DNA of 64,000 bases from Chiloscyllium plagiosum (GCF_004010195.1 NC_057749.1:7523416-7587415), one strand, 5' to 3'; positions 18,547 to 40,975 are shown, numbered from the stretch's first letter. Made by a program: numbers and translations. The notes: generated from the sequence alone by a model not told the origin.

Positions 18547-18926
18547 ACAAAGTTAAAAATCACACAACACCAGGTTATAATCCAACAGGTTTAATTGGAA
18601 ACACACTAGCTTTCGGAGCAATGCTCCCTCATCAGGTGATAGTGGAGGGCTCGATCGTAACACAGAATTTATAGCAAAAATTTGCAGTGTGATGTAACTG
18701 AAATTATACATTGAAAAATATATAATTTCATGTATAATTTCAGTTACATCACACTGCAAATTTTTGCTATAATTTCTGTGTTACGATCGAGCCCTCCACT
18801 ATCAACTGATGAAGGAGCGTCGCTCCGAAAGCTAGTGTGCTTCCAATTAAACCTGTTGGACTATAACCTGGTGTTGTGTGATTTTTAACTTTGTACACCC
18901 CAGTCCAACACCGGCATCTCCAAATC
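18547..18926. mobile_element. Penelope-like palindromic element, family B
   Basis: Inverted arms of about 165 bp (18547-18711 and 18730-18894), a hammerhead motif in each arm, 12-bp target duplication ctcacaaaaaca (18538-18549 and 18927-18938). Confidence 0.82.
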
Positions 18927-19486
18927 CTCACAAAAACATTGTTACTTCCATTTGTTTACTCAGATAGTCCTCTGCTCACGGGTAGAAAGTGAGCAGAGGT
19001 ATTTGGATTACTGTCACCTCCTGGTTAGAATGCAAATACTGTCCTTTGTTAATATCTAGTCTTTCTTTCAGAACTCACTGCGTTATTTTCCCTTTGTGTT
19101 TGATTAGAGAACCTAGCTGAAGACTCAAGATCTGTAGCTGCAAAACTTGCATAGAAAATTAACTAAACCAAGGAGGAGGGATTAGGTTTTACCTACTGTG
19201 AGTTTTGAAAATGTCAGGCTGGAGGAGAAAGGGGATGCTGGAAGGGAGGAAGGAGTTATCCATAATTGAAGATTCTGTGCACAGTAAGTTTCTGAACAAT
19301 ATATTGTTGTCAGAGTATGGATTTCATTATATACTATGAATGGTAAACGTGAGAGACATTAGATAGAAGGCAAATGAGAACAGCATTAAAAAGGGGAAGA
19401 AAAAAAGGAGAACAACAGGCATAAACAGAGAGGAATGGAAAGGAAAAAGGTTGGAGGGGGAGAGAGAGGAAAAAACAGAAAGAAAA

Positions 19487-19635
19487 NNNNNNNNNNNNNN
19501 NNNNNNNNNNNNNNNNNNNNNNNNNNNNNNNNNNNNNNNNNNNNNNNNNNNNNNNNNNNNNNNNNNNNNNNNNNNNNNNNNNNNNNNNNNNNNNNNNNNN
19601 NNNNNNNNNNNNNNNNNNNNNNNNNNNNNNNNNNN
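19487..19635. other. Assembly gap
   Basis: Run of N flanked by A/G-rich low-complexity sequence. Confidence 1.
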
Positions 19636-20309
19636 TGAAAAAAGAGAAAACAAGAGAAAGAGAAAGGAAAAAGAAAAAAATGAAATAAAGACAAAAAAAT
19701 TAAGAAAAAGTGAAGGAAAGAATGAAAAAAGAAATAAAAAGAGCGAGAGAGGAAAAAAGACAAAGAGCAGGAGGGAGAGAAAGAAAGAAAATGAGAAAGA
19801 TCTGCCCCTTGCAATATGTATATTAGGTGTCAGAGCTTTAAATTGAGTCTGGAGGAAAAAACGACAACGAACTCTCAATTCGGCAGCAGTGCACTGGAGA
19901 GGTGATTAGTTGAGACTGTCGTACACTAAAGTATGAGGCACAACATGTCCTCAATAGAGATTAAATGAACAGCAGCCAACCAATCAAACCACTGTATTTG
20001 CTCGCACTATGATCAAATTAATAATACTTACACATGTCATACTGCAAAGGTCATAGCAGCAGACTTTGTCTAAAAGTACAAAGCTCGACAGTACGAATAC
20101 TGATTGAATTAAAGTCAAACTTCAAAATACACAGTAATAAATGAAAAGGTATTTAAACAAACTAAAGAACAGATCAGCTGAAGGTGTTATTTTATTATTG
20201 ACTGATGCACAAAGAACAAGTGTTTAAAAGCTACATTCCGACTGCATGTAAAAGATGTAGAAAATAAATGTGCAAGTGGAACAAAACTCAAATAAATCGA
20301 GTCTTGTGT

Positions 20310-20930
20310 GTGCTTCATCTCCATTACAGCACCTGACTCTATCCTCAGCTTGTCCACTGCAGAATGCTTCATCCATGCCTTTGTTGCCTCTACTCCCATG
20401 TGGCGGTCATCCTACTCTCTGGGGAGGATTTATTTGTTCTCATCCAACCCTTTGTCTGCCGTGTCCTAAGTCATACTGTGTTCCATTCACTCTCCCCAAC
20501 TCCCCCCACACCCCATCCCCACACTCATTGATCTGCATTAATATCTCAATGAAGCTACATCTTAATTGTACAGTACTCCAGTTTATTTTCAAATCCCTCC
20601 CTGACCTCACAATTGCTTACCTCTACATTATCCTTCAGCCCCATAACCTCCTGAGATTTCTACACTCACTAAACTCTGTTCTCATGAGCTTCCTCCATTT
20701 TAATCACTCTGCCACTTCAGCTAGTAAGGCCAAACATCTGGAATGCCTTCCCTAAAATCTCATGTTCCTCCATTAAAATGCCCTTAAAACTTATCTCTTT
20801 GAAGCTTCTGGACATTTGCCCCCAATAGTACCTCACATGGCTCAATGTCATATGTTGTTCCAAAAACTCCTTGTGAGTTGGGATGTTACATGACAGGAAA
20901 GAACAATGTAATTGAAAGTTGTCATTTTGT
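20310..20930 (+). mobile_element. Old L2-like LINE 3' remnant
   Basis: FIHAFV.S and IFKSL..L..AYL...LQPHN..R.L.S motifs plus an L2-type tail; a similar tail at 23270-23590. Confidence 0.6.
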
Positions 20931-23900
20931 GAAGCCAAATCCAAGCATTGGCCAATTGCTGGATGTGTTGGATTAACAATATTAAAGCTTATGACTGTCT
21001 AATGTGATACTGAACCATAACAACTGGGAGGATGTGATGTTTCTCCATGTCAGTGTTGTGTTAGCTATCCACGATTGGTATGGTGGTGGGAACGTGGAAC
21101 ATTGACATGGCTCTTTTGAGTTAGGCCAGTAAGAGAAAATAACCAGCTGGAATTCCCCTTGCTATCAACTACCCATCGACCCTTCTGAGGTGCTGAAGAG
21201 GTGGGTCAGGTCTGTCTTGAATAGCAGTCAATCAATGGATTGCCCAGTGATCCTCACCACCTGGGCATGCACAATGGTGCCCGAGGAGCAATGGTGATAG
21301 TGGAACTGGGCTAAACCAATACCAGAGAGATGAGGAGGGGAAGGAGCCTCCATATTACAAGTTGGTGAAACAAGGAAACAGATCAGTCCATTGCTGCCCC
21401 ACAATCTTCCTCAAGGCATGCTCTCCATTACAGTTGAGCCATGTTTTGGATAAGGAGCAAGTATAGAGGGTAAAATGACACTGAAGAGCAGAAACAAAAT
21501 ATCACAAGGGGAAGATTATAATGCTACCTCTTGGGTGATTGAACATCTGACTAGAAACGGACTTGAAGAAAGAAATGCTTGTGAGCAAGTTGCCCAAAAG
21601 GGAAATACATTTGTATGCTGGGCATAGTGACATGAAAAATAAGATATAGGTTTATTTCTACGGTTTGATACACATCAAGTCATCCATACTGCAACTATGA
21701 ACACCATCCAACAGTTGTCTGACAGATTAGCCCACATAACTCTTTGAAACCCAAAGTTGTTGACTAGATACTGCTGTCGGTTTACAGCATCACTGTGGAG
21801 TTTCCTACATTTCGGAAACATGGTAAATCAATGTCCTACTCTTTGACACACAGGCAGTTCGAGAAACAAACTTGCTATGGTCAAACTGTTTAATACTCTT
21901 CATGCCAAGCACATTCATTATTAATTCCAGTTTAAATGCAGTGGGGATAAAAATATTCATTTAAAAAAAAAACTCAAATCAAGCACATCTAAAAATACTG
22001 CTCAGAACAAACCATATTTTAGCAACACCAGTGTGATATTCATTAATAAATAAAACCAGATGCACAAAACTGGGAGCAGAGGTCAAAAAAAAAGTTATAT
22101 TAATTCAAGCATCATACATCAAAATGGATCACAACGGAATTGAAAAAAAAATGCCAATTTTTCCTTTCAAACTATGCGAAGAAAACAAGATCTCTTTTAA
22201 TGTATCCATGAACACTTTCAATGCAGTAACTTTAACTGCATCATTTAGCTTGCATTTCTCATCCATTTGGAATTTCAAAGGGAGATAAATTGTCACACAG
22301 ATTGCATTTTAATTAGGAAGTAGAAGGAACTTTAGTGTTGAAATGAGACATTTCCTGCCCAGAATTCTCCATTCTGAGATAAGACGTGTTCAACATAGAG
22401 AAGAGATGCAAATTATACATAAAGAATTTGGAACAGGGAGGGGGTAAATTAGCACTGATTCCAACATTTGAAGGGGAAGTAGAATTCAGGCAAAAGGGAA
22501 ATTGAGGTGTTACCTCCACAGCTTTCTCCATTTGGACAGAAATGGGATAAACACAAAGTATTTTTGAAGCAGTATTGTGTAATCAAATATTTTGTGCTCA
22601 GTGTTGACAGGAAATAATCTCTGGTCACAGTCACCACAAACTGCACACAATGTAAAGTACCCCCCTACAATTTCTTAACAATGAGTGTTTACCCCAAGTT
22701 TGCTTCTGTACACTCTATTTCAATGTAAAGCTTCATCTATGTCAGTTTATCAGACTGCAGAGATACAAATGCCATTCAATACTAGACAAGGTGATCTGGA
22801 TTTAGATTGTCGAAAACTTTGATTACAGAACCTACTTCATTCCTGAGGAACATAGTTTTCATGGTTAAGAGAGATCTTCATCAATCCAGGCTGGAGTTAA
22901 TCCCGGAGGTCATCAGATACGCGTTGTCAGCCACCACCTGCTGGCCTGGCTGGCTCAATCTGCAGAGCCTGCAGCATTTTATATCAGAGCTCTGGGTTCG
23001 AGCCCAGTGCTAGGCACTCTGGGTTTAAAATCTGGGGTCTTCGGACACAGTGGTGGCATCCCTGCCTCTGCCCCAGAGGAGTGTCAAAACATGCCAAGTC
23101 AAGTTCATGAAAAATATATCACCCACTACCTCCACTTTTAATCTCCTCCCACGCTGGTCAAGAACAATCCAAAATATTAAGTGGAGGTATCCTATAAAAG
23201 CCTTCCCAGCAGTAACCTGCACTTTAAATTATATGACACAATTGATTATTTTCCTTTGAACCTTTGAACTTACCTCCACCACTCCAAATTCCCAAACTTC
23301 TGCATTCCTTCAACCCTTGCCTCTTGTGTATCTCTAACACATCACCCCTGCTATCTTCTGTCAACTAGGCCTGAGCTCTGTTCCTCACCATCAGTCTCTC
23401 TCTCTCTCTGTCTGTTTCTCTCTCTGTCTCTCCCTCTCATTTTTTTAATGCACTCTTCCTCTTTCACCAAGTATTTGGCCTCCAAACCTAAAGACTCCTT
23501 CGATATTTATGCAAAATTGTAGTGAGGTTGTGTTTCTTTTGAAGTGCCTGAGGACATTTTACATTGAAATAGCCGCAATGAGATGCTGAAGTATCACAAA
23601 CAACTGTGCAGTATCACTCTTCCTTCTCACTCTCAAGAGTGAGCTTCCAACCTCTCTGCCCTGTTTGTGGAGTTGCGAGTTAAGCAACTGAAAGGGGGAG
23701 TTGAGAGTGAAGAATGCTAAATGGTGGCTTCACAAACTACAAATGGGACTATAAATGCAGAAAGACCCAAGCACCCAGGAAAGTCACTTATCCGTGCATC
23801 TCTTTATGGTTGACAACTAAAACAAAACTGCAGCAAAGGTGACAGCAATTATGAAGCCCAGAACCATGAAAGTATGTGAAAAATCAATCATTAGGCTTCA

Positions 23901-26414
23901 AGGTATAGACCAAGCCAAAACAGAAACAAACTACATTTGGAAATAAGCAAAGGACATTCAAAATTAAATACAACATCAGTCATCAAAAAAAGGAGTATCT
24001 TTTTAAAATAAAAAAAGTAATCTGGCATTAACAGGTTCAAAATCAACTAAGATTAAATGCACCACAATGAAATTTTACACTGTTAAAACTTCCCATTGTA
24101 CCAAGGACAATTTCACAGGATACATTTGTGCAACTCAATAAATAGCAAAAGCTGTACTGAATTAATTGTTCAATTTCTTTTTAAAGGTGGAAACCTCATA
24201 GGGGATTGGTTAATGATTTATTAACTACTCCTGAAAAGAGAGGATTGCAATTTTGCCTTTTCGCAACAGCCAGAGATAAAGAAAATCATTATCTGAAAAA
24301 GGTATAGCTCTCTCTCTGAACGACCATACTGCTACTAATTACAAGCAAAACAGCTTTCTACACAAAAATAAGTATGTTCAAAGGCAAATCCAAAGATAAA
24401 ATATTTGCAATCCTAAATTGGAAGTGCTACTTATACAGAATTCCCCGTCGGTACAGAAGTAACCTGTGGAGCAACATTATAATGGGAATGGAAAACCTAT
24501 TGTAGAATCAACAATCCATGTCAACAGGCAGTGAAGAGCCCCTTCTTTAATACTAGTGTTCACACCACTGACGAAAAAAATCTTCCCTTTTTTTTAAAAG
24601 GCAATAAATATTCATAACTTTCGATGGGAAACATCAGCATCTGCACAGAGAGGCAAAGCCCTAAAGAGCACTCAAGCCTTATGCAGTGTTTATATAATAA
24701 AAATTTCACCAGCCCTACAGAGGAAGACAGGAGTTTCTCTTGTCAACCTTTTGCATCAAGTGCGGTGCCTGCTGCAGTTTGGCAAGTATCAGCCGGGAAT
24801 GAGTAACTGCACCCGGTGGATTCGGAAATAGACGTTTAACGTGTTGCTAATCGCGTCAAACCGCATCTCTTAACCACTGAAATCCGCGCTTGCCCTTCGT
24901 TAGGTATTCAACAGCACACAGGGAAACAAAAATGGATCTGCTGAACATGGGCTACCTCCCCGTCACAAGTGCTGAAATGCTGGACAGCTCCCTGCTTCCT
25001 ACTGTCAGAGACGCATTATTGGAACATTGTATGATGGGCATGGAAACTAACCAAACGGGAGTACCACATCGAATGTCAAAGGCTGACATCCATGTCACCG
25101 GGAGGCGGGTCTCATCTAACTACCTTGAAATTAAGCAGTGCAGATAAATGTCAAGTGTGGCCACATGTCTGACTGAGAGAGTAAATTTCAGACTCAAAAA
25201 AAAGTACATATGTTGCAACTGTTTCACATCCTCCAGCAACTTCTCGTGTCCACCATCTCACGACAGGTTAGAAAGCACCCCAACCCCTCCATTTTCAGTA
25301 TTGCCAGTTCAAATGGCGATGGCAATTCAGCAACACAACATTAACACTTAAAACAGCTGACCTCTATTTTTGCCTCCAACCCCTCCCCATGTAACCGAGC
25401 ATATAGCATTCAGGGCAACAGTATTTATCACTGTCTGCTTTACTTGGATACAGGAACACAGATAACAGTAATCAATGTGAATGGTACAGTAATTTTTCAA
25501 CAAAGTCCTTTGGTCAAAATGGGAAGCGTCAAATGGAATTTGCAGAACTCATTTCCAGTTTAATATTCACATCCCTCCCTCCCACCTCCCTCCAGCCCCC
25601 AGCTTGATGAAGTGAAGGGTCTTCCTCATCTTGTAACAAAGCCTGTTATATTCATTCGTCTTATCAGCTTATATTTGTGACTTGAACAACAATGCAAATA
25701 CTGCAGCATGACGTATCCAAAAAAAAATTTAATTCAGCCCATGGCAGCTCAGAGGGAAGTGGATTCGGCTACAAAAAAAAACACCCCAGCACTACAAACC
25801 CAGCGTTAGCAGAGATGCAAAATAAAAACTAAAAAAAAATCCAGGCACAACAACGTTTAATTCCAAGCCCAAAACACACGTTTTAGAAATGATCATTAAG
25901 TGCCAAGGTAGAGAACATGTCAAGGGAAGGAGAGATTGAAAATGTTGGAAATAACACCACTTGGGTATCATGCCAGTCTCACATGCCTTAACAGAAGCAG
26001 TTTGCTCCGTGGGACAGGCAGATCTCATTTCAGAAATCAGGAGCAGCAATGCGCAGTTGCTCAATGGATCTCTCTTCAGCCAGTGTTTGCACTCTGTGAA
26101 ATCTTGCAATGATCTTGCCTGCTGCAATGTCAAGATCTGTGACTGACAGGACAGATTGACACGTTATTTTTATATGCAGGAGGTGATGGGAGGATGGAGT
26201 GGGGGGGGTAGAAATTCATGAAAAGAAGCCGTCCTCTTCTGCTCTGCTGTTGAAGCAACTAGTATATGATGCATGTGCACCACTGTTAACAAGAGCCTTC
26301 ACAAACAGGAACTGCCAAGACGCAGAGCCTGGCAGAAATACTGAAGTGGGTGAAGGGATAAAAAGGTCAGATCTTTCATAACGGTAAGGTAATAAAACAA
26401 AATTATCCACTCAC

Positions 26415-26497
26415 CCCTGGTAACGTTTTCTGCTCGTGCAAAGCGCTCTGAGCTTTAAGGGCCGAATCTCTGGCACAGTATGTGAGGAAGGCACAAC
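26415..26497 (-). CDS. CELF6: CELF6-like coding exon 2 (rest of RRM1), not in the ORF track
   Basis: 83-nt exon flanked by cacacag| and |gtgagt; phase matches exon 1. It reads (G)[35 protein letters not shown] (CELF4 has CERESALK) together with exon-1 MKDHD favours CELF6; the paralogue assignment is less certain than the family. Confidence 0.92.
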
Positions 26498-28702
26498 CTG
26501 TGTGAAAAACAGAGCAAGTTACTCAATACCATAAATGCTAGTGTACTCATTTTATTAAATCCTGCACATAGAACACAGAAAATTTGTCTCCGTGTTCACA
26601 TTTCACTCCACATCTCCCTTTCCCAAGCAGGCAATTTTATCTCACTCCCCACCCAGCTTCCCTGTTCAAATTAAATCCAGATGCAGTAATGAAGTCGACA
26701 AAGTACAGAAAATGGCTTGTTTACTAAACAAGTTCAGCTACAGACAGCTTTTTTCTTTAATGAGGCAGGTTTAAGTCAATGTCCAATTGAAACTTTTCAG
26801 TCAAATCACAGACCTAATTCAATCGGCCCAATATCAAGCTTCATATTTTACAAAAAAGAAGCAATTGCTCAGAAAGGGATTTTATATCATAACTGTCTCA
26901 AGTTACACACAAGAGCACAGTCTAGGGCACAGACTTGATTTGCGGTAGGTTATTTCGACATCCAGTACATCAACTTAGCATGAATTCTTCAATATCACTG
27001 CAACACTCACTGTGGACAGCAGCATCCCTGGTCTGCAACCATGCACATTCAAATGACAATTAATGCAAGGGAGCTAGGAGTAAAGATTATTTTGCTGCAA
27101 AGACAGACACAGCAAGAAGACTCACCATGCTAATTCTTGCTGCCCAGTTAAGACAAAACAATGTCCAGACATTCCAGGCAGTTAATTCATCAAGGGCTCC
27201 TGGTAACTCAAAAGCTGAACTATACTGTGAACACATCTTATTAGTATGTATTGCAACAGATGTCAATAGTTTGGCTGCTTATCATGGCTGTTTAAGATCC
27301 AACAATCCGTCTCTTTATAGAACAAGAACAAAGCAGTCATTTGCTCGTCAGGTATGGCCTCATCAGCATCCGTGTTAATAAGACTTGACTATAAATGGGT
27401 GTGCATTAATGTCCACAGTTTATTGTCCAAGCTAAAATTATTGACAACTGCAGTTACATGAACTCCAAAGCCCAGTGGAGGAGAACGTATTTCCATTAAG
27501 ATCTACATCCCATTGATAATTTAACACAAGCTAAGGTCAGCCAATGCATGCAAATGATGATATTACTTGACAATTTTTTTTGTTACCCAATGCTATCTCA
27601 AGTCAGTGAATGAAAGGCTCAAGTCTACAGAGTAGTTAAAATAAACACTCTCAGGAAGAAAGCAGAAACAGAGAGAAGAGAAAAAGTAAAAAGAAATCCC
27701 TCCTTATATATATACACACACACACACAGATACAAATAGACACAATCCACAGAAATAGATCTGAGCTGAAATTGCGCAACTTAACTTGAGGCCAAAGTGA
27801 TTTACCGCAACAGAGCTAAGTCACTGTGGATCTGCATCTGTCATTGAAAGGCAATGTACTACACATGGTTCAGGATTCGAAGTACGATTAAAAAAAACAC
27901 CCACACACAAGGGTCCACGTTGAAGTGACAAATCGGACGAAAGTGGTAGTGTCCAACCCTCACAGACTCAAACCGGATCACGAGCTAAACAGAAATGGAA
28001 TTTTGCAAAAACTTTCTCACGGTCTCACAGTCCGAATATGACAATGATGCACGTTTAATCCCTAACCCTGGATTAACCAGACACAGTTTCAAATGCTTCT
28101 CTTTTTGAAAAAAAAATGTTTGTAAATTTAGCCGTTTGTTTTTACAAATCAGAAAGAGAAAATTGCAGGAAGGGAGGGAGGAAAAAGTGCAGCTCCGATT
28201 TGAGCTCTGTACACACACAAAAAAATACACAAACTGAAATAAACTTTTGAGCGTCCGTCATTTTCGGATGAGGGTCATGTTTAGATTTTTTTTCAGACAT
28301 ACTAATCAAGGCTGTCTAATTCCGGACATCAAAAAAAAAATCACATGAGATCAGGTCAGCAGAACACCGAATAAAGTGTTTGTTTTATTTCTGGACACAG
28401 AGTGAGAGGGAGAGAGAGGCAGAAAACCCACTCTCCAGCTAATGAAGGAAAATCGGCTGTTTGCAATTTCTCGGGAAACTTTCATGACAGGTCGTTGAAA
28501 AGTAATGGGGAAGGAGTGACACACGCAAAATTAAAAAAAAACACAAAACCTTAAAGTGGTCAGACATTAGCAGTAAAAGCCAACCAGCCAGAGGGAAAAA
28601 TAAAGTCAGCCGGGCTCTCTGTTATATTAACACACACACACACACACATAACGCTGCACCGGGGTGTCTTCATTGAACAGAAGGAGACTGGGAGCCACAG
28701 AC

Positions 28703-28943
28703 CTTTGTGCATACCGGTGAAACGATCCTTCAGCACAGTCAATTCATAGATCTTCCCAAATTCCTCGAACAGCGGCTTTAGGTCTTTCTCCTCCAGATTG
28801 CGGGGGATCTGGCCGATGAATAGCTTGATGGCGTCGTGGTCTTTCATTGGGATGGTGTTCTGACTGCTGTGGTTCAAGCCGTTCATCCGACTGCTGCCGC
28901 TGTTGCTGTTGTCTAGCTGCACTCCGTTGGTTACAGTGGCCAT
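28703..28943 (-). CDS. CELF6: CELF/Bruno-like RNA-binding protein, coding exon 1 (N-terminus and first part of RRM1); best match CELF6
   Basis: ATG at 28943 in strong Kozak context (aacATGG). It translates MATVTNG...[51 protein letters not shown] (80 codons + 1 nt) and ends at a GT donor (AAAG|gtctgt). [10 protein letters not shown] is the CELF4/CELF6 signature. The ORF track starts two codons earlier at a TTG and reads on into the intron. Confidence 0.93.
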
Positions 28944-28952
28944 GTTCAAGCG

Positions 28953-28986
<34 letters not shown>
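28953..28986. repeat. (CT/GA)n microsatellite immediately upstream of the CELF6 start codon, probably in the 5' UTR
   Basis: Near-pure ct repeat about 10 nt from the ATG. Confidence 0.9.
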
Positions 28987-28989
28987 GAT

Positions 28990-29045
28990 CGCTCACGTCA
29001 GCCTCTAACTAGGAGACTCTGCAAGTCCTGACGTCAGGATTGCAT
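28990..29045. promoter_or_regulatory. Putative CELF6 proximal promoter/5' region with CRE (CREB/ATF) sites
   Basis: Perfect TGACGTCA at 29029-29036 inside the 14-bp palindrome TCCTGACGTCAGGA (29026-29039); CRE-like TCACGTCA at 28993-29000; 50-95 bp upstream of the ATG in a locally CpG-richer region. Confidence 0.55.
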
Positions 29046-29700: not shown

Positions 29701-29707
29701 CATTAAA

Positions 29708-30012: not shown

Positions 30013-30491
30013 ACACACACACACACGCACACACACACACGCAGAGGCACAGGACAAGCTTCCTCTTTAACCCATGCCTTGCTGAATCACTGCATCTCAT
30101 AAAAACTCTTGGATTCGTTCCTGAGAGTGCAGTGAAAGATGCAATGGTATAGATCATTGTGCTTTGTTTGCCAGACAAAATGAAGCATTCCATTTTCCAA
30201 TTTATTCCCTGTCAGTTTAATTGTCGCTCCTTATCAGTGTGAAGTCATGGGGTACCTGACCAGCTGATGTCTGGAGTTGGTTGCAAGTTACTGTCATTTG
30301 TAGTACCCAACCTTGCACTTAGGTATCTCACTGTCTCATCCAGACTGAAACTTCATGCTAAATCACCCTCCTGGAAGGAAAAAATACATGCGTGTGAAAG
30401 AAAATGAAAAACTGAAAGAGAGAGAGAGAGAGACAAACAGAGTGACAAAGTGACATTGCAATAGGCAGAGTGAGAGAATGATAGACAAAGA

Positions 30492-30522
<31 letters not shown>

Positions 30523-31449: not shown

Positions 31450-32450
31450 TGAACAAGTACAGAAAATAATCAAAAAGGTTAGTGGAATGTTGTTCCTTAT
31501 CTCTCTCTCTCTCTCTCTCTCTCACTCTCTCTATAATATATATACGTACTCACATAGAAGTCATGGGTTTCAACTCTATGAACCATTGGTTTGATCCATA
31601 CTTGAGTGTTGTTAGCAATCTGCATACCACACTGTAGGAAGAATGTACTTTGTCATAGAGCCAAAGAGTTGTTCAGCACTGAAATGGATCCTTCAGTCTA
31701 ACTTGTCCAGGCTAACCAGATATCTTAAATTAATCCAGTCCCATTTGCCAGCATTTGGCCAATTTCCCTCTAAACTCTTCATATTAGAAACCCATTCAGA
31801 TGCTTTTACTTTGAGGAGTGTGGTATAAATTTACCAGAATGGTAGTTGGACTCCTGGAGTTAAATAATGAGGAGAGGTTACGCAAATTAGGATTACATTG
31901 CTCCAAATTTGGAAGATGAGAGATGACTGAATCAATTTTTTTCAAGTTATTCAGGGGAACAGGTAGTTCAGATGAATGTAAACTACTTCTGCTAGGTAGG
32001 GCATCCAGGAGAAGGAGGAATGGGTGAAAAAGTTAGAGCGAGATCTTTCGAGACTGAAGTTTGGAAATACTTCTCTACGCAAACAAATGGTGGAAATGTT
32101 AAAACCGATAGAACTATGGATGCTGTAAATCAGAAACAAAAACAGAAGTTGCTGGAAAAGTTCAGCAGGTCTGGCAGCACCTGTGAAGAGAAATCAGAGT
32201 TAACATTTCAGGTCCAGTGACCCTTCCTCAGAACAGGGACCCTTCCTTTCCTCAGGTGAAAATGTTTAGCTCTCTTCCATAAACAATAACTAATACGAAG
32301 CCAGCTGTGAACTTTGCTCTGGAAATCATCAGTCAAAGTCGTTAGGAGGTTATGGGGTATATATGGTTCACAGATCATCCATCATCTCATTAAATGGCAG
32401 AATCAGCTAGTGAAACAAAATGACTCTGTGCTGTACCTTATCCTGAAATT
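31450..32450. mobile_element. Cluster of nested CR1 remnants
   Basis: Plus-strand CR1 ORF2 end (FETEVWKYFSTQ) interrupted by a minus-strand CR1 tail (31650-31810) and a family C element. Confidence 0.6.
32112..32234 (-). mobile_element. Penelope-like family C fragment with a hammerhead motif
   Basis: Minus strand 32234-32199: gtt CTGAGGA a gggtc actg gacct GAAA tgTT aac. Confidence 0.7.
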
Positions 32451-34156
32451 TCACCGTTTCATCGAGAGTCATCGGTTTGATAGAAAAAACATTTAGCATT
32501 GGAAAAAAGAGAGATATGTTGCAAAGCCTTTCACTTGGGAACTCATCAGTATAAATGCAAGAATGCCAAATTTCAAACAGGCACAACAATTTATACTACC
32601 AGAGAAGACCGATAGGATAGCAGGCTCAGTCTGCTTAGCTGACGTATTGCCTTGGATGGGAATCTTAGACTCTTTAAGCCTCTGGGCAATACAAAAAAAA
32701 GTGTACAATATTAATATATTTCTTTAATTACAAAGAATGGGTCCGTGAGTATAAATGTCTATCACTTTTGTTGCATAACTGGACATTGTACAAGCTGAAG
32801 TGATTATCTGAAATTATTTATTCAAGTAACTCACCCAGGATTGTTGAGCTAGTGCTTAATTATGGGATTGCCACCAACTCAGTACAGCAGCGCTTCACAG
32901 GAGGTTCCACAGCACTGAGGATGTCACCGAGAAAGGGGACGAACCGTCATACAATCCAAATTCCCAACTTGACGAACACGCCCACAACTGTGGCATCACA
33001 TCTAAGAGGAGACATTGTATTTTGGGCTTGACAAACACAGGTCAGTTGAGTGCAGTAATGTAGTCAGTACTCTGCCTATGCTGAACAGTCAAAGGAACAT
33101 GTGGTTTGATTCACTCAGCTAATCATTGGGATTTGCAGCTTATATATTTAGGCTTTGGGAACAGTTAACAATCGATAGACAGATTACCATATTATTATCT
33201 GAATACCTTTTTAAAAGAAAAATGCCAATCCTTCTAAGCGTTAAAGGACATAAATATCTTTGATCAACCTGTTTAGAGATATTAATGCACACCTCTGGAG
33301 CAGGTGGGATTTGAACCGAAGCCTCCTGGCTCAGGAGAAGGGACATGATTCCTTGCCTCAGTGTCATTCCTGGTACCTTCATGGCCAGCAGAATGATACA
33401 ACAACAACAATGCTCTCATACACTCTATATAAATGTCCCCATTCAACACTGTTCTATTCCCTCAAAATCTACATGTCTCACCTTGTACCTAGTCATATCT
33501 GTCTCCCCAACTTTGTTTCCACTTTCTCTTGGTATCTATTACTGCACAGGTAAAACACAACAGTTGTACATTCCCTCAGAGTCCCTGCTGCTGCCAACAT
33601 TGAGATTGGAGAGAGTTTCAGATGGACCAGGAACTGCACCATTCTCTTGTTGTCACTTTGCCTGACCAAAGCCACCAGGAGGCACACTTGAGTAATTCAG
33701 AGGGCATTCCCTCCTATCATATATATATATATATATATATATGCATCCACATATCAATACCAAAAAAACATTTTTTTCATTGCTGAGGAAATTCACTCTT
33801 TCGGAAGAATCTTCCCCAACTCACTCAGCATATTGAGAAACTAAATTGCAGAATACATTTTGCATTGTGCTCAGCAGTGGCAGGGGATGGATCAGCTGGA
33901 TGAGGAACCCTGCAGTTACCAAGTGTGTAGCCAAGTTTTTAATTGCTGGTGTTGAAAATTGAATACAGGTGAATATTTGAAAGTAGGTTTATGGTTTGGG
34001 ACGTCGAGCTCCAAACGTCAAAAGAATTCTGTTTTTCATGGCACACCAGACTTTCATAGATTTGCTGCATTGAGCTTCTCATAGTGTTATGTATCATTAT
34101 ACATAACGAGGGGAGGACCCTTTTAAGAGAAGGATTCAGCAATTCTCTGATCCATA

Positions 34157-34495
34157 ATGGCACAGTGGAGTGGTGGCACGGTGGCACAGTGGAGTGGGCA
34201 GCACGGTGACTCTGTGATTAGCGCTGCTGCCTCACAGCGCCAGAGACCTGGATTCAATTCCCACCTCAGGCGACTCACTGTGTGGAGTTTGCACATTCTC
34301 CCCGTGTCTGCGTGGGTTTCCTCCGGGTGCTCCGGTTTCCTCCCACAGTCCAAAAATGTGTAGGTTAGGTGAATTGGCCATGCTAAATTGTCTGTAGTGT
34401 TAGGTGAAGGGGTAAATGTAGGGGAATGGGTCGGTGTGGACTTGTTGGGCCGAAGGGCCTGTTTCCACACTGGAAGTAATCTAATCTAATCTAAT
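34157..34495 (+). mobile_element. HE1-type V-SINE
   Basis: Full head, V-domain and (taatc)n tail; stuttered 5' end. Confidence 0.88.
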
Positions 34496-34516
34496 TTAGT
34501 CTACAAAAAACCCCTA

Positions 34517-34863
34517 CAAGTGTGGAAGCAGGTCATTCAGCCCATCGAGTCCACCCAAACAGCATCCCACCCAGACTCACCCCATCCCTGTAACCCTGCA
34601 TTTCCCATGGCTAATCTACCTAACCTATACATCCACGGAAATTATGGGCAATTTAGCATGGCCAATCCACCTAAACTGCACATCTCTGTGCAAATCAGAG
34701 AGGAAACCAGAGCACGTGGAGGAAACGCTTGCAGACACAGACTGGATGTGCAAACTCACGACAGATAGTTGCCCGAGGTTGGAATGGAACACAGGTCACA
34801 CTTGAAACCAGGTCCCTGGCACTGAGAGGCAACAGTGCTAACCACTGAGCCATTGTCCTGCCC
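34517..34863 (-). mobile_element. HE1-type V-SINE, tail-to-tail with the previous copy
   Basis: Reverse complement of head, V-domain and tail. Confidence 0.82.
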
Positions 34864-35949
34864 CAACATGAGGCACATATGTCAGAAATAAGCCAGACAT
34901 AATCTTCAGCCTGATAAACCAGTCAGCCTTTAAAGCAAAAGGGGCATCATTCCTCTTCGACAATATTGGTGTGTGAAGATGGTAGGGTAATGGTGGTGGT
35001 AATGTCACCGCACTGGTAGTCCGGATGGACAGACTAATATTCTGGGGAGTGAGGGGACACAGGTTTCAAATCCTGCCACAATAGACACTGAAATTTAACC
35101 GCAATTGATAAATTTGAAGCCAGTCTCAATAGTGGCGACCATGACAACTATTGATTATTGTAAAATAAAACTATCAGGTGCACGAGTATTCTTGAGGGCA
35201 GGAGGCCTGCTGTCTTTAACCAGTCTGGCCGACATAATGTGATCGGCTCTTAACTATCCCTTCAGACCAAATTAGGTACAATAAACACCAGCCCTGCCAG
35301 TGATCCTATGTCAAGAACTGCAGCACTCATCCTTCATGTACACTATTATGTGCACACACATCGAGTCATCGAGACACAGATACAGACCCTTCGGCCCAAC
35401 CTGTCAATGCTGAATATAATCCCAATCTCATGCAAAAATAAATAGAAATAATATAAAATAAAATCAATGTGTGAAGCAAGCAAAGTGATTAACAGAGAAG
35501 AAGTCAGAAGCAAAGTTGGGTCAGCTGGGTCCAACTCAATACAAGAGGTGGTCTTGGAACTGATTTTTAAAAAAGGCAGGCAGTGGAATGCAGAGATTGA
35601 CAGAGAGAATGGAAAGATGTTGTGGCTGAAGCCATTGCCATTGATACACATCAAACCATACCAGTGCAGATGGCAACCATTTGGCCCATCACGCCTGTGC
35701 ATAAAGGGAGGAGGAAATCAAAGTCAGGTTGGGGGAGGGTTGAAGACAAAGGGAGTGCTGTGGGACCATGAACGGATTTTACAGCAGGCCTCGCATGTTT
35801 TGCTGGCAAGGTTGTGGGCCGGGGTTGTGCAAGACCTATGACATTGTCAATTGCACACCTATCTTTTTCCAGGTGACAGGGTGAAATGGATTATCAACCT
35901 GGAACCCAAACTGAGAGAAGCTTTTATCATTAAAGAAATTTAGTCAGTT

Positions 35950-38900
35950 TTTTGATACACTCATCGGACACAAGTGTTGCTGTCTGAGTCTGCATTTGTT
36001 GCCCTTATCTAGTCACCCCATCAGAAGGTGATGGTGAGTTGCCTTTCTGAACTGCTGCAGTCTATGTATTGGATATACACATAATGCCCTCAGGGAGGGA
36101 ATTCTAAGTTTTTGACCCTGTGACAGTGAAGGATCGACGATATATTTCTAAGTCAGGATAGTGAATAGCTTGGAAGGGAACTTGCAGGTGGTGATGTTCC
36201 TGTGTATCTGCTGCCCTCGTCCTTCCAGATGGAAGTGGTCATGGGTTTGGAAGGTGCTGTCTGAGGATCTTTGGTGAATTTCTACAGTGCATCTTGTTGA
36301 TAATACACTCTGCTACTCCTGAGTGTCAGTGGTGGAGGAAATGGATGCTTGTGAATGCAGTGCCAATTAAGTCAGCTGCTATTTTCTGGATGGTGTCAAG
36401 CTCATTGAGTGTTGTTGGAGCTGCACCCATCCAGGCACGTGGGGTGTATTCCATCACACTCCTGACTTGAGTCCCTGTGTAGATGGTGGACAGGCTTTGG
36501 GGAGTCAGGAGGTGAGTTACTCGCTGCAGTATTCCAAACCTCTGACCTGCTCTTGTAGTTGTTTATGCAGTGAGTCCAGTTGAGATTCTGGTCAATGGTA
36601 ACCCCCAGGATGTCGATAGTGGGGGAATTCAGTTTTGGTAACAGCACAAGGTTAGCTTGACACTTATTGGTGATGGTCACTGCCTGGCATTTGTGTGGCA
36701 CCAATGTTACTTGCCACTTGTCAGCCCAAGCCTGGATATTGTCCAGATTTTGTTGCACATGAATATGGAATGCTTCAGTATCTGAGGAGTTGCGAAATGT
36801 GCTGAATATTTTCTCACCTTACAATGGAGGGAAAGTCAATGATGAAGTAGCTGAAGATGTTTGGGCCTAGGACACTACTCGGAGGAACTCCTGCAGAGAT
36901 GTTATGGAATTGAGATGACTGACATCCAACAACCACCACCATCTTCCTATGTGCCATGTATGACTCCCACTAGCAGAGACTTTGCCCCCTCAGATACCCA
37001 TCAACTCCAGTTTTGCTAGGAGGGTTCCTTGATGCCATACTTGGGTAGAATGCAGCATTAATGTCAAGGGCTGTCACTCTCACCTCCTCTCTGGAATTCA
37101 GCTCTTTTGTCCACGTTTGAACCAAGGCTATAATGAGGTCAGGAGCTGAGTGACCCTGGCAGAACTCAAACTGAGCATCACTGAAAAGTTTATTGCTGAG
37201 AGGTGCAGCATTAATGTCAAGGGCTGTCACTCTCACCTCCTTTCTGGAATTCAGCTCTTTTGTCCATGTTTGAACCAAGGCTATAATGAGGTCAGGAGCT
37301 GAGTGACCCTGGCAGAACTCAAACTGAGCATCACTGAAAAGTTTATTGCTGAGAGGTGCTGCTTGATCACACCGTTGATGGCAACTTCCATCATTTTACT
37401 GATGATGAAAAGTAGGCTCTTGGGATGGTAATTGGTCAGGCTTGATTTGCCCTGTTTTTATATACAGGACATATCTGAGCAATTTTACACATTATTGGGT
37501 AGGTACCAGTGTTGTAACTGTACTGGAAGAGTCAGGCTAGGGGAGCAGCAACTTCTGGAAAACAAGTCTTCAGTGCTATTGCCAGAACGTTGTCAGGGCC
37601 CATAACCTTTGCATTTTCCAGCACCTCCAAGTGTTTCTTGATATCACATGTAATGAATTGGATTGGCTGAAGATTGGTATCAGTAATAGCTGGAGACCAC
37701 TGGAGGAGGCTGAGATGGATCATCCACTCAGCACCTCTGGCTGAAGTTTGCTGCGAAAGCTTCAGCCTTATCTTTTGCCCTGATGTGCTGGGCTCTTCCA
37801 TAATTGAGGATGGGGATAATTGTGCAGCCTCCTCCTGCAATGAGTTGTTTAATTACCATCACCATTCATGACTGGATGTGACTGGACTGCAGAGCTTAGA
37901 TCTAACCTGTTGATTGTGGGGATTTCTCAGCTCTCTCTATCATTTGCTGCTTATGCTGTTGGTATGCAAGTAGTCCTGTTTGGTAGCTTCAGCAGATTCA
38001 CATGTCATCTTTAGGTATGCCTGGTACTGCTCCTGGCATGCCCTCCTGCACTCTCCATTGAACTAGAATTGATTGCTAGGCTTGATGATAATGGTTGAGT
38101 GGGGGATATGCTGGGCTGTGAGATTGCAGATTGAGCTGGAGTACAGTTCTGCTGCTGTTGATGGCCCACAGCAGCACATTGATGCCCAGTCTTGAGTCTA
38201 TCCCATTTAACACTGTGATAGTGCCACACAACATGCTGGAGGGTATTCTCAATGTGAAGGCGGGACTTTGTCATCACAAGGACAGCACGGTGGTCACTCT
38301 CACCGATACTGTTATGGACAGATACACCTGCAGCCAGCAGATTGGTAAGGATGAGGTCATGTATGTTTTACCCTCTTGTTGGTTCCTTCACCAACTGCTG
38401 CAGACCCAGTCTAGCAGCTATGTCCTTTAGGACCCGACTGGCTCGATCAGCAGTGTTACTGCCAAGTCACTCTTGGTGGTGGACATTGAAATCCTCCATC
38501 CAGTGATTACATTTTGTACCCTTGCCAGCCTCATTGTTTCCTCCAAGTGTTGTTCAACATGGAGGCGTATTGATTCATCGGTCAAGGGAGGGTGGTGCGT
38601 GGTAATCAGCAGGAAGTTTCCTTGCCCATGTCGAAACTGAAGCTAAGCGACTTCATGGGGTCCAGAGTCAATGTTGAGGACTCCCAGGGCAACTCTCTCC
38701 CGACTGTATGTCACTGTTCTACCACCTCTGCTGGGTTTGTCCTGCCAGTGGGACAGGACATATCCAGGGATGGTGATGGCGGTGTCTGGGACAGTGTCAG
38801 GCACGATTCCATGAGTATGAATATGTCGGGCTGTTGTTCACTCATCTGTGAGATGACTCTCCCAATTTTGGCACTAGCCCCCAGATGTTAGTGAGAAGGA

Positions 38901-38950
38901 CTTTGCAGGGTTGATGGGGCTGTTTCTGCCATTGTCTCTTTCAGTGCCCA
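35950..38950 (-). mobile_element. Degenerate CR1-clade LINE, most of ORF2 (endonuclease-RT) plus 3' end
   Basis: Collinear, frameshifted minus-strand ORF fragments: VWHYH..KWDRLK, KVMGPDNV.AIALKTC.PE.AAPLA, QF.F.QGHSAPDLI.ALVQTWTKELNSREEVRVTALDI.AAF, MQQNLDNIQAWADKWQVT..PHKCQ, ILGVTIDQ.LNWT. Confidence 0.88.
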
Positions 38951-39789
38951 GGTCAATGGCAGCTGGTCTGATACGCTTCATTTCTTTGTTGAGACTACAT
39001 ACTGAATGTGACAACTGAGTGGCTCATTGGGTCATTTCAGAAAGCAGTTGAGAGTCAACCACATTGTGTGGGTCTGGAATCACATGGAGGCCAGACCAGG
39101 CAGGGATGGCAGTTTCTTTCCCTGAAGGACATTAATGAACCAGATGGCTTTTTCCAACAATCGTCAATAGTTTCATGGTCATCGGTAGAATCTTAATTGC
39201 AGATTTTCCTTTGAAACTGATTTCAAATTTCACCAGCTGCCCTGAGGAGATTTGAACCTGTGTTTCCCAGAACATTAGCTGAGTTTCTGGATGAGTAGTC
39301 CCACAATAATACCACTAGGCCATTGCTTCCCCAGCTACAGACTGGACCCTACTATGAAAGACAGTTCCACGAGAAATTTCCAGACAAGTTTCTGGTATTC
39401 TATATCAAATGGATCTACCAGACATGTTATAGCAGAAACATACAGGATAAAACCCAGAGCTCACAATGCAATAGAACTTGTGCTGGATGGAGTTAAACAA
39501 TGATCACAAGAGCTAATTTCACAGCAGAAAAAGTGCAGAGAAGCTCCAATAGAAGAGAAATAAGAGACTGTAGGGGAAAGAAAAGTTAATGAACAGCATT
39601 ACTTAAGTGCAATGTCATGAACGGGATCATCATATCAGCAGAGTCAAAACATAGAAAATAGGCACAGGAGTAGGCCATTTGGCCCTTTGGGACTCATCCC
39701 CCATTCATTCTGATCACCCAACTCTAGTTATTGGAACTGGGCAAAGATCTTGAATGTAAAATTTTTTTTCATGATTGGATGGAGATGAA

Positions 39790-40300
39790 GGTCAGTGTTA
39801 ACTAGAAGACACAAACTTGTAACAAGAACAAATAAAACTTATACCTTGCTACTTTTAGAAATTTGGACAGCAACTGAAGAAAATAGAAGCCTTTGAATTG
39901 TGGATGCTGAGTCATAGAGTCATAGAGATGTACAGCGCAGAAACAGATGCTTTGGGTCAACTCGTCCATGCCAACCAGATATCCCAAACCAATCTGGTCC
40001 CATTTGTCAGCACCTGATCCATATCTCTCTAAACCCTTCTTATTCATATACCCAACCAGATGCCTTTTCAATATTCTGTATGCTAAAATCTCCAGATACT
40101 GCATTGAGACAAGTGAAGTGCTCAAAATTGCAATAGCTTAAGAACTCCAAAAAGTGACATCCAAAACAGAAAATGTCATTATTTTGGCCGTTTGATCAGA
40201 GCTGATAAGATAGGGATCTCTTTCAGAGAGCAGGGTACAGGGCAGCAGAGAAAGGGATCGACAGAGATGCAGATGCCAGCAGGCAAGAGCGAACAACTCC
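39790..40300 (+). mobile_element. RTE-clade LINE C-terminal remnant, split by a CR1 tail
   Basis: KKIEAFELWML before the 39909-40070 insert; KIS....TSEVLKI...RKCHYFGRLIRAD after it. Confidence 0.55.
39909..40070 (-). mobile_element. CR1 LINE tail
   Basis: gagtcatagagtcatagagatgtacagc... is the reverse complement of the tail. Confidence 0.85.
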
Positions 40301-40881
40301 AGTGGTGCCCACGTGAGGATGGGGCAGGGCAGATGACTGTGACCGACCACATCAGCAGAGCCCCTCCCAGAAATGACTACAGGCTACAGTAACCATGCTG
40401 CTGCCACACTCCAATGTGAGAACATGGAGTGACAACAGTCACTTGGAGGCATCATCTTCCTTTTGAGATGTTAAACAACAGGAAACATCTTTCTCTCCAG
40501 GAAATCACAGACCTATTTCAAAGGAAAAGGGGTGAGAAGGAATGGCTGAGTGAGTGCGAGGGGAAGAGAGAGAATGGATGGGTGTGAGAGATAGAGACAG
40601 AGAGAGAAGGAGGATGGGTGGGCATGATAGAGAGAGAGGATGGTGAGTGAGAGAGGGGGGAGAGGAAATAGAAAGGTGAGGGGAGAGGGAGAAAGAAAGG
40701 ATGGATAGGTGAGTGAAAGAGAGAAAAAGGGGATGGGTGATTCAATTACTTCATACACCTGGCTGCAACATTTATTAAAAAGCCAAAATTTGCATCCTTG
40801 CTAATGAATATGTCCCTTCCTCAGGCATTCTCTCAAGTTTAATAAAACCTGAGAGAGAGAGAGAGAGAGATAGATACATAG

Positions 40882-40975
40882 TTGAAACTTTATTGCTGGA
40901 ACAGCACAGCAGGTCAGGCAGCATCCAGGGAACAGGAGATTCGACGTTTCGGGCACAGGCCCTTCTTCAGGAATG
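40882..40975 (-). mobile_element. Penelope-like family A fragment with an intact minimal hammerhead motif
   Basis: Minus strand 40974-40939: attc CTGAAGA a gggc ctgt gccc GAAA cgTC gaat. Confidence 0.75.

What the first reader, a model, noticed from the sequence alone, without database searches (positions are those of the whole stretch)
18604..40974. Three shark Penelope-like families each carry a minimal hammerhead ribozyme with covarying stems
Seen: three short-element families share CUGANGA-(extra purine)-stem II-GAAA-NN-UH, but their stems differ while keeping base pairing. Family A (40974-40939, -) is auuc CUGAAGA a gggc-cugu-gccc GAAA cg UC gaau. Family B (18638-18604, -) is cac CUGAUGA g ggagc-auu-gcucc GAAA gc UA gug. 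Family C (32234-32199, -) is guu CUGAGGA a ggguc-acug-gaccu GAAA ug UU aac. Stem I (auuc/gaau, cac/gug, guu/aac) and stem II both covary. Stem III is reduced to a self-complementary tetramer: ACGU in A, AGCU in B, and AUGU in this C copy (probably ACGU before CpG decay). Known: Penelope-like retroelements carry minimal type I hammerheads thought to cleave as dimers. Inference: about 15 related insertions in 64 kb point to a very abundant ribozyme-bearing retroelement system in this genome; whether these families have been described as such is unknown to me.
Basis: partly seen in the sequence, partly recalled or inferred. Interest (0 to 1): 0.8.

Follow-up and report, generated by a model that had tools for sequence, protein, structure and literature searches.

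The report
Penelope-type hammerhead retroelement fragments, inverted pairs
The three motifs are real minimal hammerhead ribozyme sequences carried by short, mostly dead fragments of Penelope-like jumping genes; this arrangement is already described in other vertebrates, so the catch is correct but of a known kind.

Summary
The motif CTGANGA-N8-22-GAAA-NN-TH occurs 8 times against 0.95 expected. Profile searches find 26 element arms at 15-16 loci, about 3.1 kb or 4.8% of the window.

Between families A, B and C, six base pairs change on both sides and stay paired. In register, 71 of 80 stem cells pair, against 12-40 of 80 when the partner is slid.

Ten loci are head-to-head inverted pairs of 5'-truncated arms. 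Eight of the ten have 10-14 bp target-site duplications (one 13 bp with an indel). Nine of the ten carry a 25-39 nt "tail" on one arm only. These are published hallmarks of Penelope-like element (PLE) insertion (PMC8557442, PMC11167929). The ribozyme architecture matches the PLE minimal hammerhead of PMC4209133.

Not shown:
- Any link to a reverse transcriptase (RT) / GIY-YIG endonuclease ORF. None was found in the window.
- Cleavage.
- The organism.

Rfam hammerhead models do not detect the motifs, and only 8 of the 26 arms keep an intact core.

Verdict: a new member of a known kind, of low to moderate interest. This scan found similar head-to-head PLE ends before, in rotifers.

The parts
1514..1676 (.). 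Family B inverted pair. The left arm is only about 40 nt. The right arm has a decayed hammerhead (segment 1554-1595 +) and a tail. TSD CATTATT[A/G]CCAAAG at 1500-1513 and 1677-1690.
3465..3985 (.). Family A inverted pair with about 145 nt kept upstream of each hammerhead. Intact cores at 3566-3593 (-) and 3895-3922 (+). Tail on the left arm only (3465-3503). TSD CCAGATT[G/A]ATA at 3454-3464 and 3986-3996. The arms are 77% identical.
6119..6372 (.). Family C inverted pair. Decayed hammerheads at 6185-6225 (-) and 6236-6278 (+). Tail on the right arm only. TSD ATAAAATATT at 6109-6118 and 6373-6382. The arms are 74% identical.
6519..6600 (-). Weak, single C-like arm (nhmmer E 0.0036).
7195..7303 (+). 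Single family C arm that starts inside the hammerhead and carries a tail.
7405..7602 (.). Family A inverted pair. The hammerhead at 7511-7538 (+) has its core boxes intact but U16.1 changed to C. The left arm starts near the cleavage site and carries the tail (7405-7438). TSD GTCAATGTCTGGG at 7392-7404 and 7603-7615.
12360..12463 (+). Single family C arm with a decayed hammerhead.
13215..13368 (.). Family A inverted pair whose junction lies inside the hammerhead. Tail on the right arm only. The left arm also lacks its last ~30 nt. TSD CTCTTAATCCAGAG at 13201-13214 and 13369-13382.
17867..18065 (.). Youngest family A inverted pair (arms 95% identical, ACGT kept in both). The junction lies in stem II. 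A 5'-truncated hammerhead is at 17921-17961 (-). Tail on the right arm only (18031-18065). TSD TACATGGA(A)TGCC at 17854-17866 and 18066-18078.
18550..18926 (.). Intact hammerheads at 18607-18635 (-) and 18806-18834 (+). About 85 nt are kept upstream of each. Tail on the right arm only (18895-18926). TSD CTCACAAAAACA at 18538-18549 and 18927-18938. The arms are 94% identical.
32107..32236 (-). Intact core at 32202-32231. It carries a tail.
40887..40975 (-). Intact hammerhead at 40943-40970 with a 4-bp stem I. No tail. It is embedded in simple-repeat DNA.
54480..54717 (.). Family C inverted pair, decayed. Tail on the right arm only. TSD CTATTAAA[A/G]TC at 54469-54479 and 54718-54728.
58217..58425 (.). 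Family A inverted pair whose junction lies inside the hammerhead. Tail on the right arm only. No TSD was found.
59313..59446 (.). Family B inverted pair. Intact cores at 59369-59397 (-) and 59410-59438 (+), only 12 nt apart. The right arm is cut short after the hammerhead. No tail and no TSD.
60385..60492 (+). Single C-like arm with a tail. It starts inside the hammerhead.

Best explanation
The window holds 15-16 old insertion products made by the Penelope-like element (PLE) retrotransposition machinery. They belong to three lineages: A and C, which are related, and B. Each arm is the 3'-terminal module of the element RNA. That module is a minimal type I hammerhead (CUGANGA, one unpaired purine, a 4-5 bp helix II, GAAA, and a 4-nt palindrome in place of helix III), followed by 55-65 nt, with or without a further ~25-39 nt tail.

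Shown here:
- The motif, and its covariation between lineages.
- The twin, inverted, 5'-truncated arms.
- The one-sided tail.
- The 10-14 bp target-site duplications, which show that each pair entered as a single event.

Inferred from published PLE biochemistry (Anolis Poseidon PAc, PMC11167929):
- The element endonuclease cuts both DNA strands with a stagger.
- Both 3' ends prime reverse transcription on the RNA 3' module, at one of two adjacent internal start sites. The tail is the sequence between those sites.
- The two short cDNAs are joined head to head.

Inferred from PMC4209133 and the review PMC6765202: in master elements the hammerhead lacks its own helix III, so it can cut only when two copies pair through the ACGU/AGCU palindrome, or with protein help.

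The copies in this window are dead on arrival. None has two hammerheads in tandem on one strand. In the inverted pairs the sense ribozyme would be sequestered by its antisense twin. Only 8 of the 26 arms keep the core.
For: - Sequence at the stated sites.
- 8 motif matches against 0.95 expected.
- 26 arms at 15-16 loci.
- Six pairs with compensatory changes between lineages.
- 71 of 80 stem cells paired in register, against 12-40 of 80 when slid.
- The minimum-free-energy fold of the A copy is the two-stem hammerhead layout.
- 10 loci are inverted pairs.
- TSDs lie directly outside the element ends in 8 of 10 pairs.
- Exactly one tail in 9 of 10 pairs, and never two. If tails were assigned to arms independently, the probability of this is about 0.002.
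- CpG-decay pattern at the palindrome, with window CpG observed/expected 0.28.
- Literature read: PMC4209133, PMC8557442 passages, PMC11167929 passages, PMC6765202 passages.
Against: - No RT or GIY-YIG ORF is linked to any copy. None was found among the 99 of 112 ORFs of 90 aa or more that were scanned. The only RT trace, at 36402-36818, is weak and unclassifiable.
- No Rfam hammerhead family matches, even at E<=10.
- A covariance model built from 7 A+C hammerheads finds B copies only at E 0.87-5.4, and misses 18801-18842 altogether. So the A/C-B relationship rests on the short core plus the shared layout.
- Stem I of family A pairs at only 1-2 of the first four positions in 3 of 4 copies.
- No tandem pseudo-LTR arrangement is present.
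- Cleavage was never observed here. In Anolis PAc no RNA-seq reads ended at the hammerhead site, and the ribozyme was dispensable for insertion in vitro.
Confidence: 0.85

Rival explanations
1. The arms are copies of short non-autonomous elements of about 100-135 nt (a hammerhead plus the 3' recognition module) that PLE proteins mobilise in trans. They are not random 5' truncations of 3-4 kb autonomous PLEs.
For: The 5' ends of 22 of 26 arms fall inside the hammerhead or within about 10 nt upstream of it. Only two loci (3465-3985 and 18550-18926) keep more upstream sequence. A 2026 preprint argues that vertebrate hammerhead retrozymes are non-autonomous PLE derivatives and counts one chondrichthyan among the carriers (10.64898/2026.07.22.740005: abstract, section 14 and passages).
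Against: Published PLE insertions are described as highly 5'-truncated anyway. The two longer loci show that longer templates existed. One window cannot give a length distribution.
Confidence: 0.3
2. The elements are non-LTR retrozymes: tandem hammerhead repeats that spread through small circular RNAs.
For: They have a type I hammerhead with a short palindromic helix III and occur in a vertebrate genome, and retrozymes are reported in one chondrichthyan.
Against: No head-to-tail tandem copies were found at any of the 16 loci. All multi-copy loci are inverted, with defined 3' ends, tails and TSDs.
Confidence: 0.05
3. The inverted pairs are foldback or MITE-type DNA transposons whose terminal inverted repeats happen to contain a hammerhead-like string.
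For: Ten loci are palindromes flanked by direct duplications.
Against: The inner junction differs in every pair. One outer end always carries an extra ~25-39 nt that the other lacks. TSD length varies from 10 to 14 bp. Five or six loci are single arms with the same 3' ends. None of this is expected of cut-and-paste elements.
Confidence: 0.03
4. The hammerhead-like strings are chance matches in a repeat, with no ribozyme history.
For: Rfam models do not score them. The conserved core is only about 13 nt. There is no activity data.
Against: There is an eightfold excess over shuffles. Three lineages have different stems that all pair in register. Every ancillary feature listed for PLE minimal hammerheads is present.
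Confidence: 0.02

Closest known systems
Minimal hammerhead ribozymes (min-HHR) in the pseudo-LTRs of metazoan Penelope-like elements (Cervera & de la Pena 2014, PMC4209133)
   Same: Type I order of the core boxes. An unpaired nucleotide before helix II. The G10.1-C11.1 pair. Helix III replaced by a palindrome. A short helix I. Several covarying families within one genome. Mostly solitary truncated copies. Pairs on opposite strands 100-700 bp apart.
   Different: The parts read of that paper name fishes, coelacanth, Xenopus and reptiles, but no cartilaginous fish. Here no copy sits in a full element. Helix II here is 4-5 bp, against the 7-8 bp described there for Schistosoma.
Poseidon PAc of Anolis carolinensis, reconstituted in vitro (PMC11167929)
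   Same: As printed in that paper's methods (compared by eye), its hammerhead has the same CUGAGGA + one nucleotide + helix II + GAAACGUC layout. Its reverse-transcription start sites lie about 85-92 nt after the cleavage site. Its tail is the stretch between two start sites. Both DNA strands are cut and extended.
   Different: In PAc the ORF starts inside the hammerhead. Here no frame stays open through the B and C modules. No protein or activity data exist for the elements here.
General PLE insertion anatomy (Craig et al. 2021, PMC8557442, Fig. 2 legend and text)
   Same: High 5' truncation. An adjacent inverted 5'-truncated copy. A 30-40 bp tail, often at one end only.
   Different: No partial tandem (pseudo-LTR) and no ORF in this window. 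Here the units are reduced to twin arms of 80-280 nt.
Non-LTR retrozymes of animals (PMC7229834, search listing only; 10.64898/2026.07.22.740005)
   Same: Type I hammerheads with a weak helix III, and a proposed descent from PLE pseudo-LTRs.
   Different: Retrozymes are head-to-tail tandem arrays that give circular RNAs. No tandem arrangement was found here.
Athena/Terminon 3' hammerhead modules of bdelloid rotifers
   Same: Head-to-head fragments of PLE 3' ends with minimal hammerheads.
   Different: Those lack the endonuclease and end in telomere-complementary repeats. The elements here are dispersed and have TSDs.

Membership tests
PLE-type minimal type I hammerhead ribozyme | Conserved boxes CUGANGA ... 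GAAA ... UH in type I order | tested here: met
   8 exact matches against 0.95 expected. Of the 12 full-length copies, 9 have all nine fixed letters of the two boxes and 8 also keep U16.1.
PLE-type minimal type I hammerhead ribozyme | Helix II directly after the core, closed by G10.1-C11.1, with one unpaired nucleotide between A9 and G10.1 | tested here: met
   The unpaired purine is present in 12 of 12 copies. The 10.1-11.1 pair is G-C in 8 and G-U in 4. Helix II is 4-5 bp.
PLE-type minimal type I hammerhead ribozyme | Helix III absent, with positions 15.1-15.2-16.2-16.1 forming a self-complementary tetramer able to pair between two copies | tested here: met
   ACGU in A, AGCU in B. C has AUGU or ACAU, consistent with CpG decay of ACGU.
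PLE-type minimal type I hammerhead ribozyme | Short helix I whose strands covary | tested here: met
   3 bp in B and C. In A, 4 bp in 1 of 4 copies and 1-2 paired positions in the rest. Three pairs show compensatory differences between lineages.
PLE-type minimal type I hammerhead ribozyme | Self-cleavage after H17, as a dimer or with protein help | not testable with these tools
Rfam hammerhead families | Score at or above the gathering threshold of a curated hammerhead covariance model | tested here: not met
   No hammerhead family matched at the gathering threshold or at E<=10. That those models include a helix III is my recollection, not a call result.
Penelope-like element (PLE) | ORF with reverse transcriptase plus GIY-YIG endonuclease linked to the repeat | tested here: inconclusive
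   None was found among the 99 of 112 ORFs of 90 aa or more that were scanned. The arms are too truncated to contain one, and no whole genome is held.
Penelope-like element (PLE) | Strong 5' truncation with an adjacent inverted 5'-truncated copy | tested here: met
   10 of 16 loci are head-to-head pairs.
Penelope-like element (PLE) | [quoted passage not shown] | tested here: met
   Exactly one tail of about 25-39 nt in 9 of 10 pairs, and never two.
Penelope-like element (PLE) | Partial tandem copies forming pseudo-LTRs | tested here: not met
   No two arms lie in direct orientation next to each other in the window.
Non-LTR retrozyme | Head-to-tail tandem repeats, each unit with a hammerhead | tested here: not met
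   No tandem units.
MITE / foldback DNA transposon | Fixed terminal inverted repeats and a TSD of fixed length | tested here: not met
   Variable inner junctions, asymmetric outer ends, TSDs of 10-14 bp, and single arms.

The most novel reading that the evidence does not exclude
The hammerhead may be more than a passenger ribozyme. It may also be the structural end-point of PLE mini-insertions. The 5' ends of 22 of 26 arms, and the junctions of 7 of 10 twin insertions, fall inside the hammerhead or within about 10 nt of it. Every determinable twin has exactly one tailed and one untailed arm.

This would fit a dimeric ribonucleoprotein that holds two RNA 3' modules together through the palindromic helix III/helix II region. 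It would copy one module from each DNA strand, from different start sites, and join the cDNAs where the two RNAs meet. The minimal hammerhead would then have a role in insertion geometry, which could explain why it is kept although it cuts poorly.
Probability: 0.12. Interest if true: 0.6.

Novelty: new member of a known kind. Interest (0 to 1): 0.28.

Why it matters
Minimal hammerheads in Penelope-like elements, their covarying families and their likely action as dimers have been in print since 2014. PLE expansion in a shark genome has also been reported (whale shark preprint 10.1101/443036, passages). The window therefore adds a cartilaginous-fish example rather than a new principle.

Its modest value is as a clean natural record of PLE integration. 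Eight TSD-flanked twin insertions with a strictly one-sided tail agree with the in vitro finding that a PLE enzyme extends both DNA strands from two internal RNA start sites. A genome this rich in such footprints would allow two tests by counting end-points genome-wide:
- whether hammerhead cleavage ever shapes the template;
- why truncation stops at the ribozyme.

Tried and rejected
- Rfam scans at gathering threshold and at E<=10 gave no hammerhead family. The sub-threshold miRNA-family hits at 18660-18781, 7461-7578, 17902-17996, 13216-13321 and 3631-3856 are simply the palindromes of the twin insertions.
- MAFFT misaligned family B against A/C, so pair counts were made on a manual length-based parse in a script, not with the count of structure pairs.
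- A covariance model built from A+C did not significantly recover B.
- RNAalifold on eight A/C 3' modules predicted 12 pairs between the conserved GCTGCC..CTGCTG block and the tail, but with no compensatory change. The tail stem seen in single folds is therefore unproven.
- No whole genome is held for the window.
- Earlier notes of this scan hold nothing for this genome or sequence.
- Sequencing runs: no RNA holder is listed. There are therefore no data on expression, RNA ends or empty orthologous sites.
- A metagenome scan with a 19-nt conserved block gave 81 loci. All match only the seed plus a few bases, and none of the 10 best extensions carries a hammerhead. They are chance matches.
- The weak RT fragment at 36402-36818 could not be classified.
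- No frame stays open through the B and C modules.
- Literature: searches 'hammerhead ribozyme' + 'cartilaginous' and 'Penelope-like' + 'Chondrichthyes' found no paper describing these motifs in cartilaginous fishes. Lunse et al. 2016 (dimer cleavage) is not held and is cited only through PMC6765202. The supplementary tables of PMC4209133 and of the 2026 preprint were not seen and may list cartilaginous-fish species. Repbase and Dfam were not available.


Full report
**Observation.** A pattern for the motif (CTGANGA, 8-22 nt, GAAA, 2 nt, TH) has 8 exact matches:

- 3566-3593 (-)
- 3895-3922 (+)
- 18607-18635 (-)
- 18806-18834 (+)
- 32202-32231 (-)
- 40943-40970 (-)
- 59369-59397 (-)
- 59410-59438 (+)

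The mean over 100 dinucleotide-preserving shuffles is 0.95, and no shuffle reached 8. Profiles built from the arms find 20 A/C-type and 6 B-type arms at 15-16 loci, together about 3.1 kb or 4.8% of the window.

**The ribozyme motif.** I parsed the 12 copies that span the whole motif by segment length.

| Feature | Result |
|---|---|
| Both core boxes fully intact | 9 of 12 copies (8 also keep U16.1) |
| Unpaired purine between A9 and G10.1 | 12 of 12 copies |
| Pair 10.1-11.1 | G-C in 8, G-U in 4 |
| Central tetramer, family A | ACGU (40975 copy) |
| Central tetramer, family B | AGCU (5 of 5 copies) |
| Central tetramer, family C | AUGU or ACAU |

In the four G-U copies the T sits in TG where the other copies have CG, which is what CpG decay would give. 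Across the 16 A/C arms that reach the tetramer, the middle dinucleotide is CG 3, TG 7, CA 4, TA 1 and CT 1 (read). The window's CpG observed/expected ratio is 0.28.

Between the lineages, both sides change and pairing is kept at six pairs:

- 1.1-2.1
- 1.2-2.2
- 1.3-2.3
- 10.3-11.3
- 10.4-11.4, with three different Watson-Crick pairs
- 15.2-16.2

In register, 71 of 80 stem cells pair. When the 3' partner is slid by 1-3 positions, only 12-40 of 80 pair. The minimum-free-energy fold of the family A copy is the expected two-stem layout.

Points against:
- Family A's 4-bp stem I is found only in the quoted copy. The other three A copies pair at 1-2 of the first four positions.
- No Rfam hammerhead model scores these sites, even at E<=10.
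- A covariance model built from seven A+C motifs recovers further A copies (E 2e-8 to 0.01). It finds B copies only at E 0.87-5.4 and misses one entirely.

B is therefore tied to A/C by the short core and the shared architecture, not by a significant model score.

**What the elements are.** Self-comparison shows that 10 of the 16 loci are head-to-head inverted pairs. The hammerheads lie near the centre and read outward. Printing the arms in a common orientation shows three things.

1. The arms share a defined 3' end, 55-65 nt after the cleavage site, but start at different points. They are 5'-truncated copies.
2. In 9 of 10 pairs exactly one arm continues past the common end for a further ~25-39 nt, and no pair has two such tails. 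If tails were assigned to arms independently, this would have a probability of about 0.002.
3. In 8 of 10 pairs a 10-14 bp direct duplication lies immediately outside the two outer ends. Examples are CTCTTAATCCAGAG at 13201-13214 and 13369-13382, GTCAATGTCTGGG at 7392-7404 and 7603-7615, and CTCACAAAAACA at 18538-18549 and 18927-18938. Each pair therefore entered as one event.

The remaining five or six loci are single arms with the same 3' ends, with or without the tail. Arm-to-arm identity within pairs runs from 74% to 95%, so the insertions are of very different ages and mostly old.

**Comparison with what is known.** Craig et al. 2021 describe PLE insertions as highly 5'-truncated. They often have an inverted 5'-truncated copy adjacent, and a 30-40 bp tail that is often present at one end only (PMC8557442, passages). 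The in vitro study of the Anolis Poseidon element (PMC11167929, passages) reports four things:
- the enzyme cuts and extends both DNA strands;
- reverse transcription starts at two adjacent internal RNA sites;
- the tail is the sequence between those sites;
- the start sites lie about 85-92 nt after the hammerhead cut site.

Cervera & de la Pena 2014 (PMC4209133, parts 1-2 read) list the marks of PLE minimal hammerheads:
- covarying families within one genome;
- the G10.1-C11.1 pair;
- a palindromic 15.2-16.2;
- mostly solitary truncated copies;
- pairs on opposite strands 100-700 bp apart.

Every one of these is met here. By eye, the Anolis hammerhead printed in the methods of PMC11167929 has the same CUGAGGA + one nucleotide + helix II + GAAACGUC layout.

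**What is missing.** The defining protein link could not be tested. Of the 112 stop-to-stop ORFs of 90 aa or more, 99 were scanned against Pfam. Thirteen were left out: 11 run across the N gaps and 2 are alternative frames of a simple repeat. No GIY-YIG domain and no clear PLE RT was found. One weak RT fragment at 36402-36818 is unlinked to any arm and could not be classified.

No whole genome is held. A metagenome scan gave only chance matches. There is therefore no evidence on transcripts, RNA ends or empty orthologous sites. The organism stayed coded, so 'shark' is unverified.

**Mechanism.** The most likely account has three inferred steps.

1. A PLE ribonucleoprotein made a staggered double cut.
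2. Both DNA ends primed cDNA synthesis on the RNA 3' module, one from the tail-distal and one from the tail-proximal start site.
3. Synthesis stopped after about 100 nt, usually within the hammerhead, and the two cDNAs were joined.

The anatomy is shown. The enzymology is inferred from the Anolis work.

Lacking its own helix III, the hammerhead could act only by pairing two copies through the palindrome, or with protein help (PMC4209133; PMC6765202 passages). In this window no locus offers two sense copies in tandem. In the inverted pairs the antisense twin would sequester the ribozyme. Only 8 of the 26 arms keep the core. These copies are fossils, and any ribozyme function belongs to master elements elsewhere in the genome.

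**An unexplained regularity.** The 5' ends of 22 of 26 arms, and the junctions of 7 of 10 pairs, lie inside the hammerhead or within about 10 nt upstream of it. Only the loci at 3465-3985 and 18550-18926 extend further. There are three possible reasons:
- short non-autonomous master elements;
- a structural stop for the reverse transcriptase;
- a role of the hammerhead pair in joining the two cDNAs.

It is not simple run-off at the cleavage site, because many arms include helix II and part of the core.

**Novelty.** The kind is in print for fishes, coelacanth, amphibians and reptiles. PLEs are reported in the elephant shark (PMC4350176, passages) and as expanded in whale shark introns (10.1101/443036, passages). 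A 2026 preprint counts one chondrichthyan among carriers of PLE-derived hammerhead retrozymes. My searches found no paper that describes these motifs in cartilaginous fishes. However, Repbase, Dfam and the relevant supplements were not seen. I file this as a new member of a known kind.

Noticed in passing
window 28560-28997 (-): An ORF contains a start-like MATVTNG... peptide followed by an RRM_1 match (Pfam E 6e-8), ending near a likely splice donor. From memory it looks like exon 1 of a CELF (CUGBP/Elav-like) family gene. If so, positions below 28560 are its first intron, and many of the insertions are intronic.
   Followed up: partly
window 63428-63535 (-): A 5S rRNA match above the Rfam gathering score (45.2 bits against 38), but with broken terminal helix pairs and internal deletions. 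It is probably a 5S-derived SINE or a pseudogene rather than a working 5S gene.
   Followed up: no
window 62479-62853 (-): An ORF matches Pfam ALKBH8_N (E 1.8e-8). From memory its sequence resembles the C-terminal region of fish LINE reverse-transcriptase ORFs rather than a host ALKBH8 exon. It is probably a LINE fragment.
   Followed up: no
window 18660-18781, 7461-7578, 17902-17996, 13216-13321, 3631-3856: Sub-threshold Rfam hits to assorted miRNA precursor families all coincide with the centres of the inverted twin insertions. If transcribed, such loci would fold into long hairpins and could feed small-RNA pathways.
   Followed up: no
window 3465-3565, 6271-6372, 17969-18065, 18835-18926, 1588-1676 and other tail-bearing arms: In single-sequence folds the first half of the tail pairs with a block about 20 nt after the cleavage site. 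The pairing is CAGAUGCUG with CAGCAUCUG in A/C, and CCUGGUGUUG or UGUUGGACU with the CAACACC/AGUCCAAC part of the tail in B. The untailed 3' end therefore lies inside the enclosed loop. This recalls the stem-loop at the reverse-transcription start sites of the Anolis element. RNAalifold found no compensatory change within A/C.
   Followed up: partly
window 36402-38367 (-): A run of short ORFs on one strand with a weak RVT_1 match (E 0.004) at 36402-36818. It is a degraded reverse-transcriptase element of unknown class and is not adjacent to any hammerhead arm.
   Followed up: partly
window 32237-32265 (-): Just upstream of the family C hammerhead there is a partial direct repeat of its first half (CTGAGGAAAGGAAGGGTCC beside CTGAGGAAGGGTCAC). 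It may be a template-jump scar.
   Followed up: no
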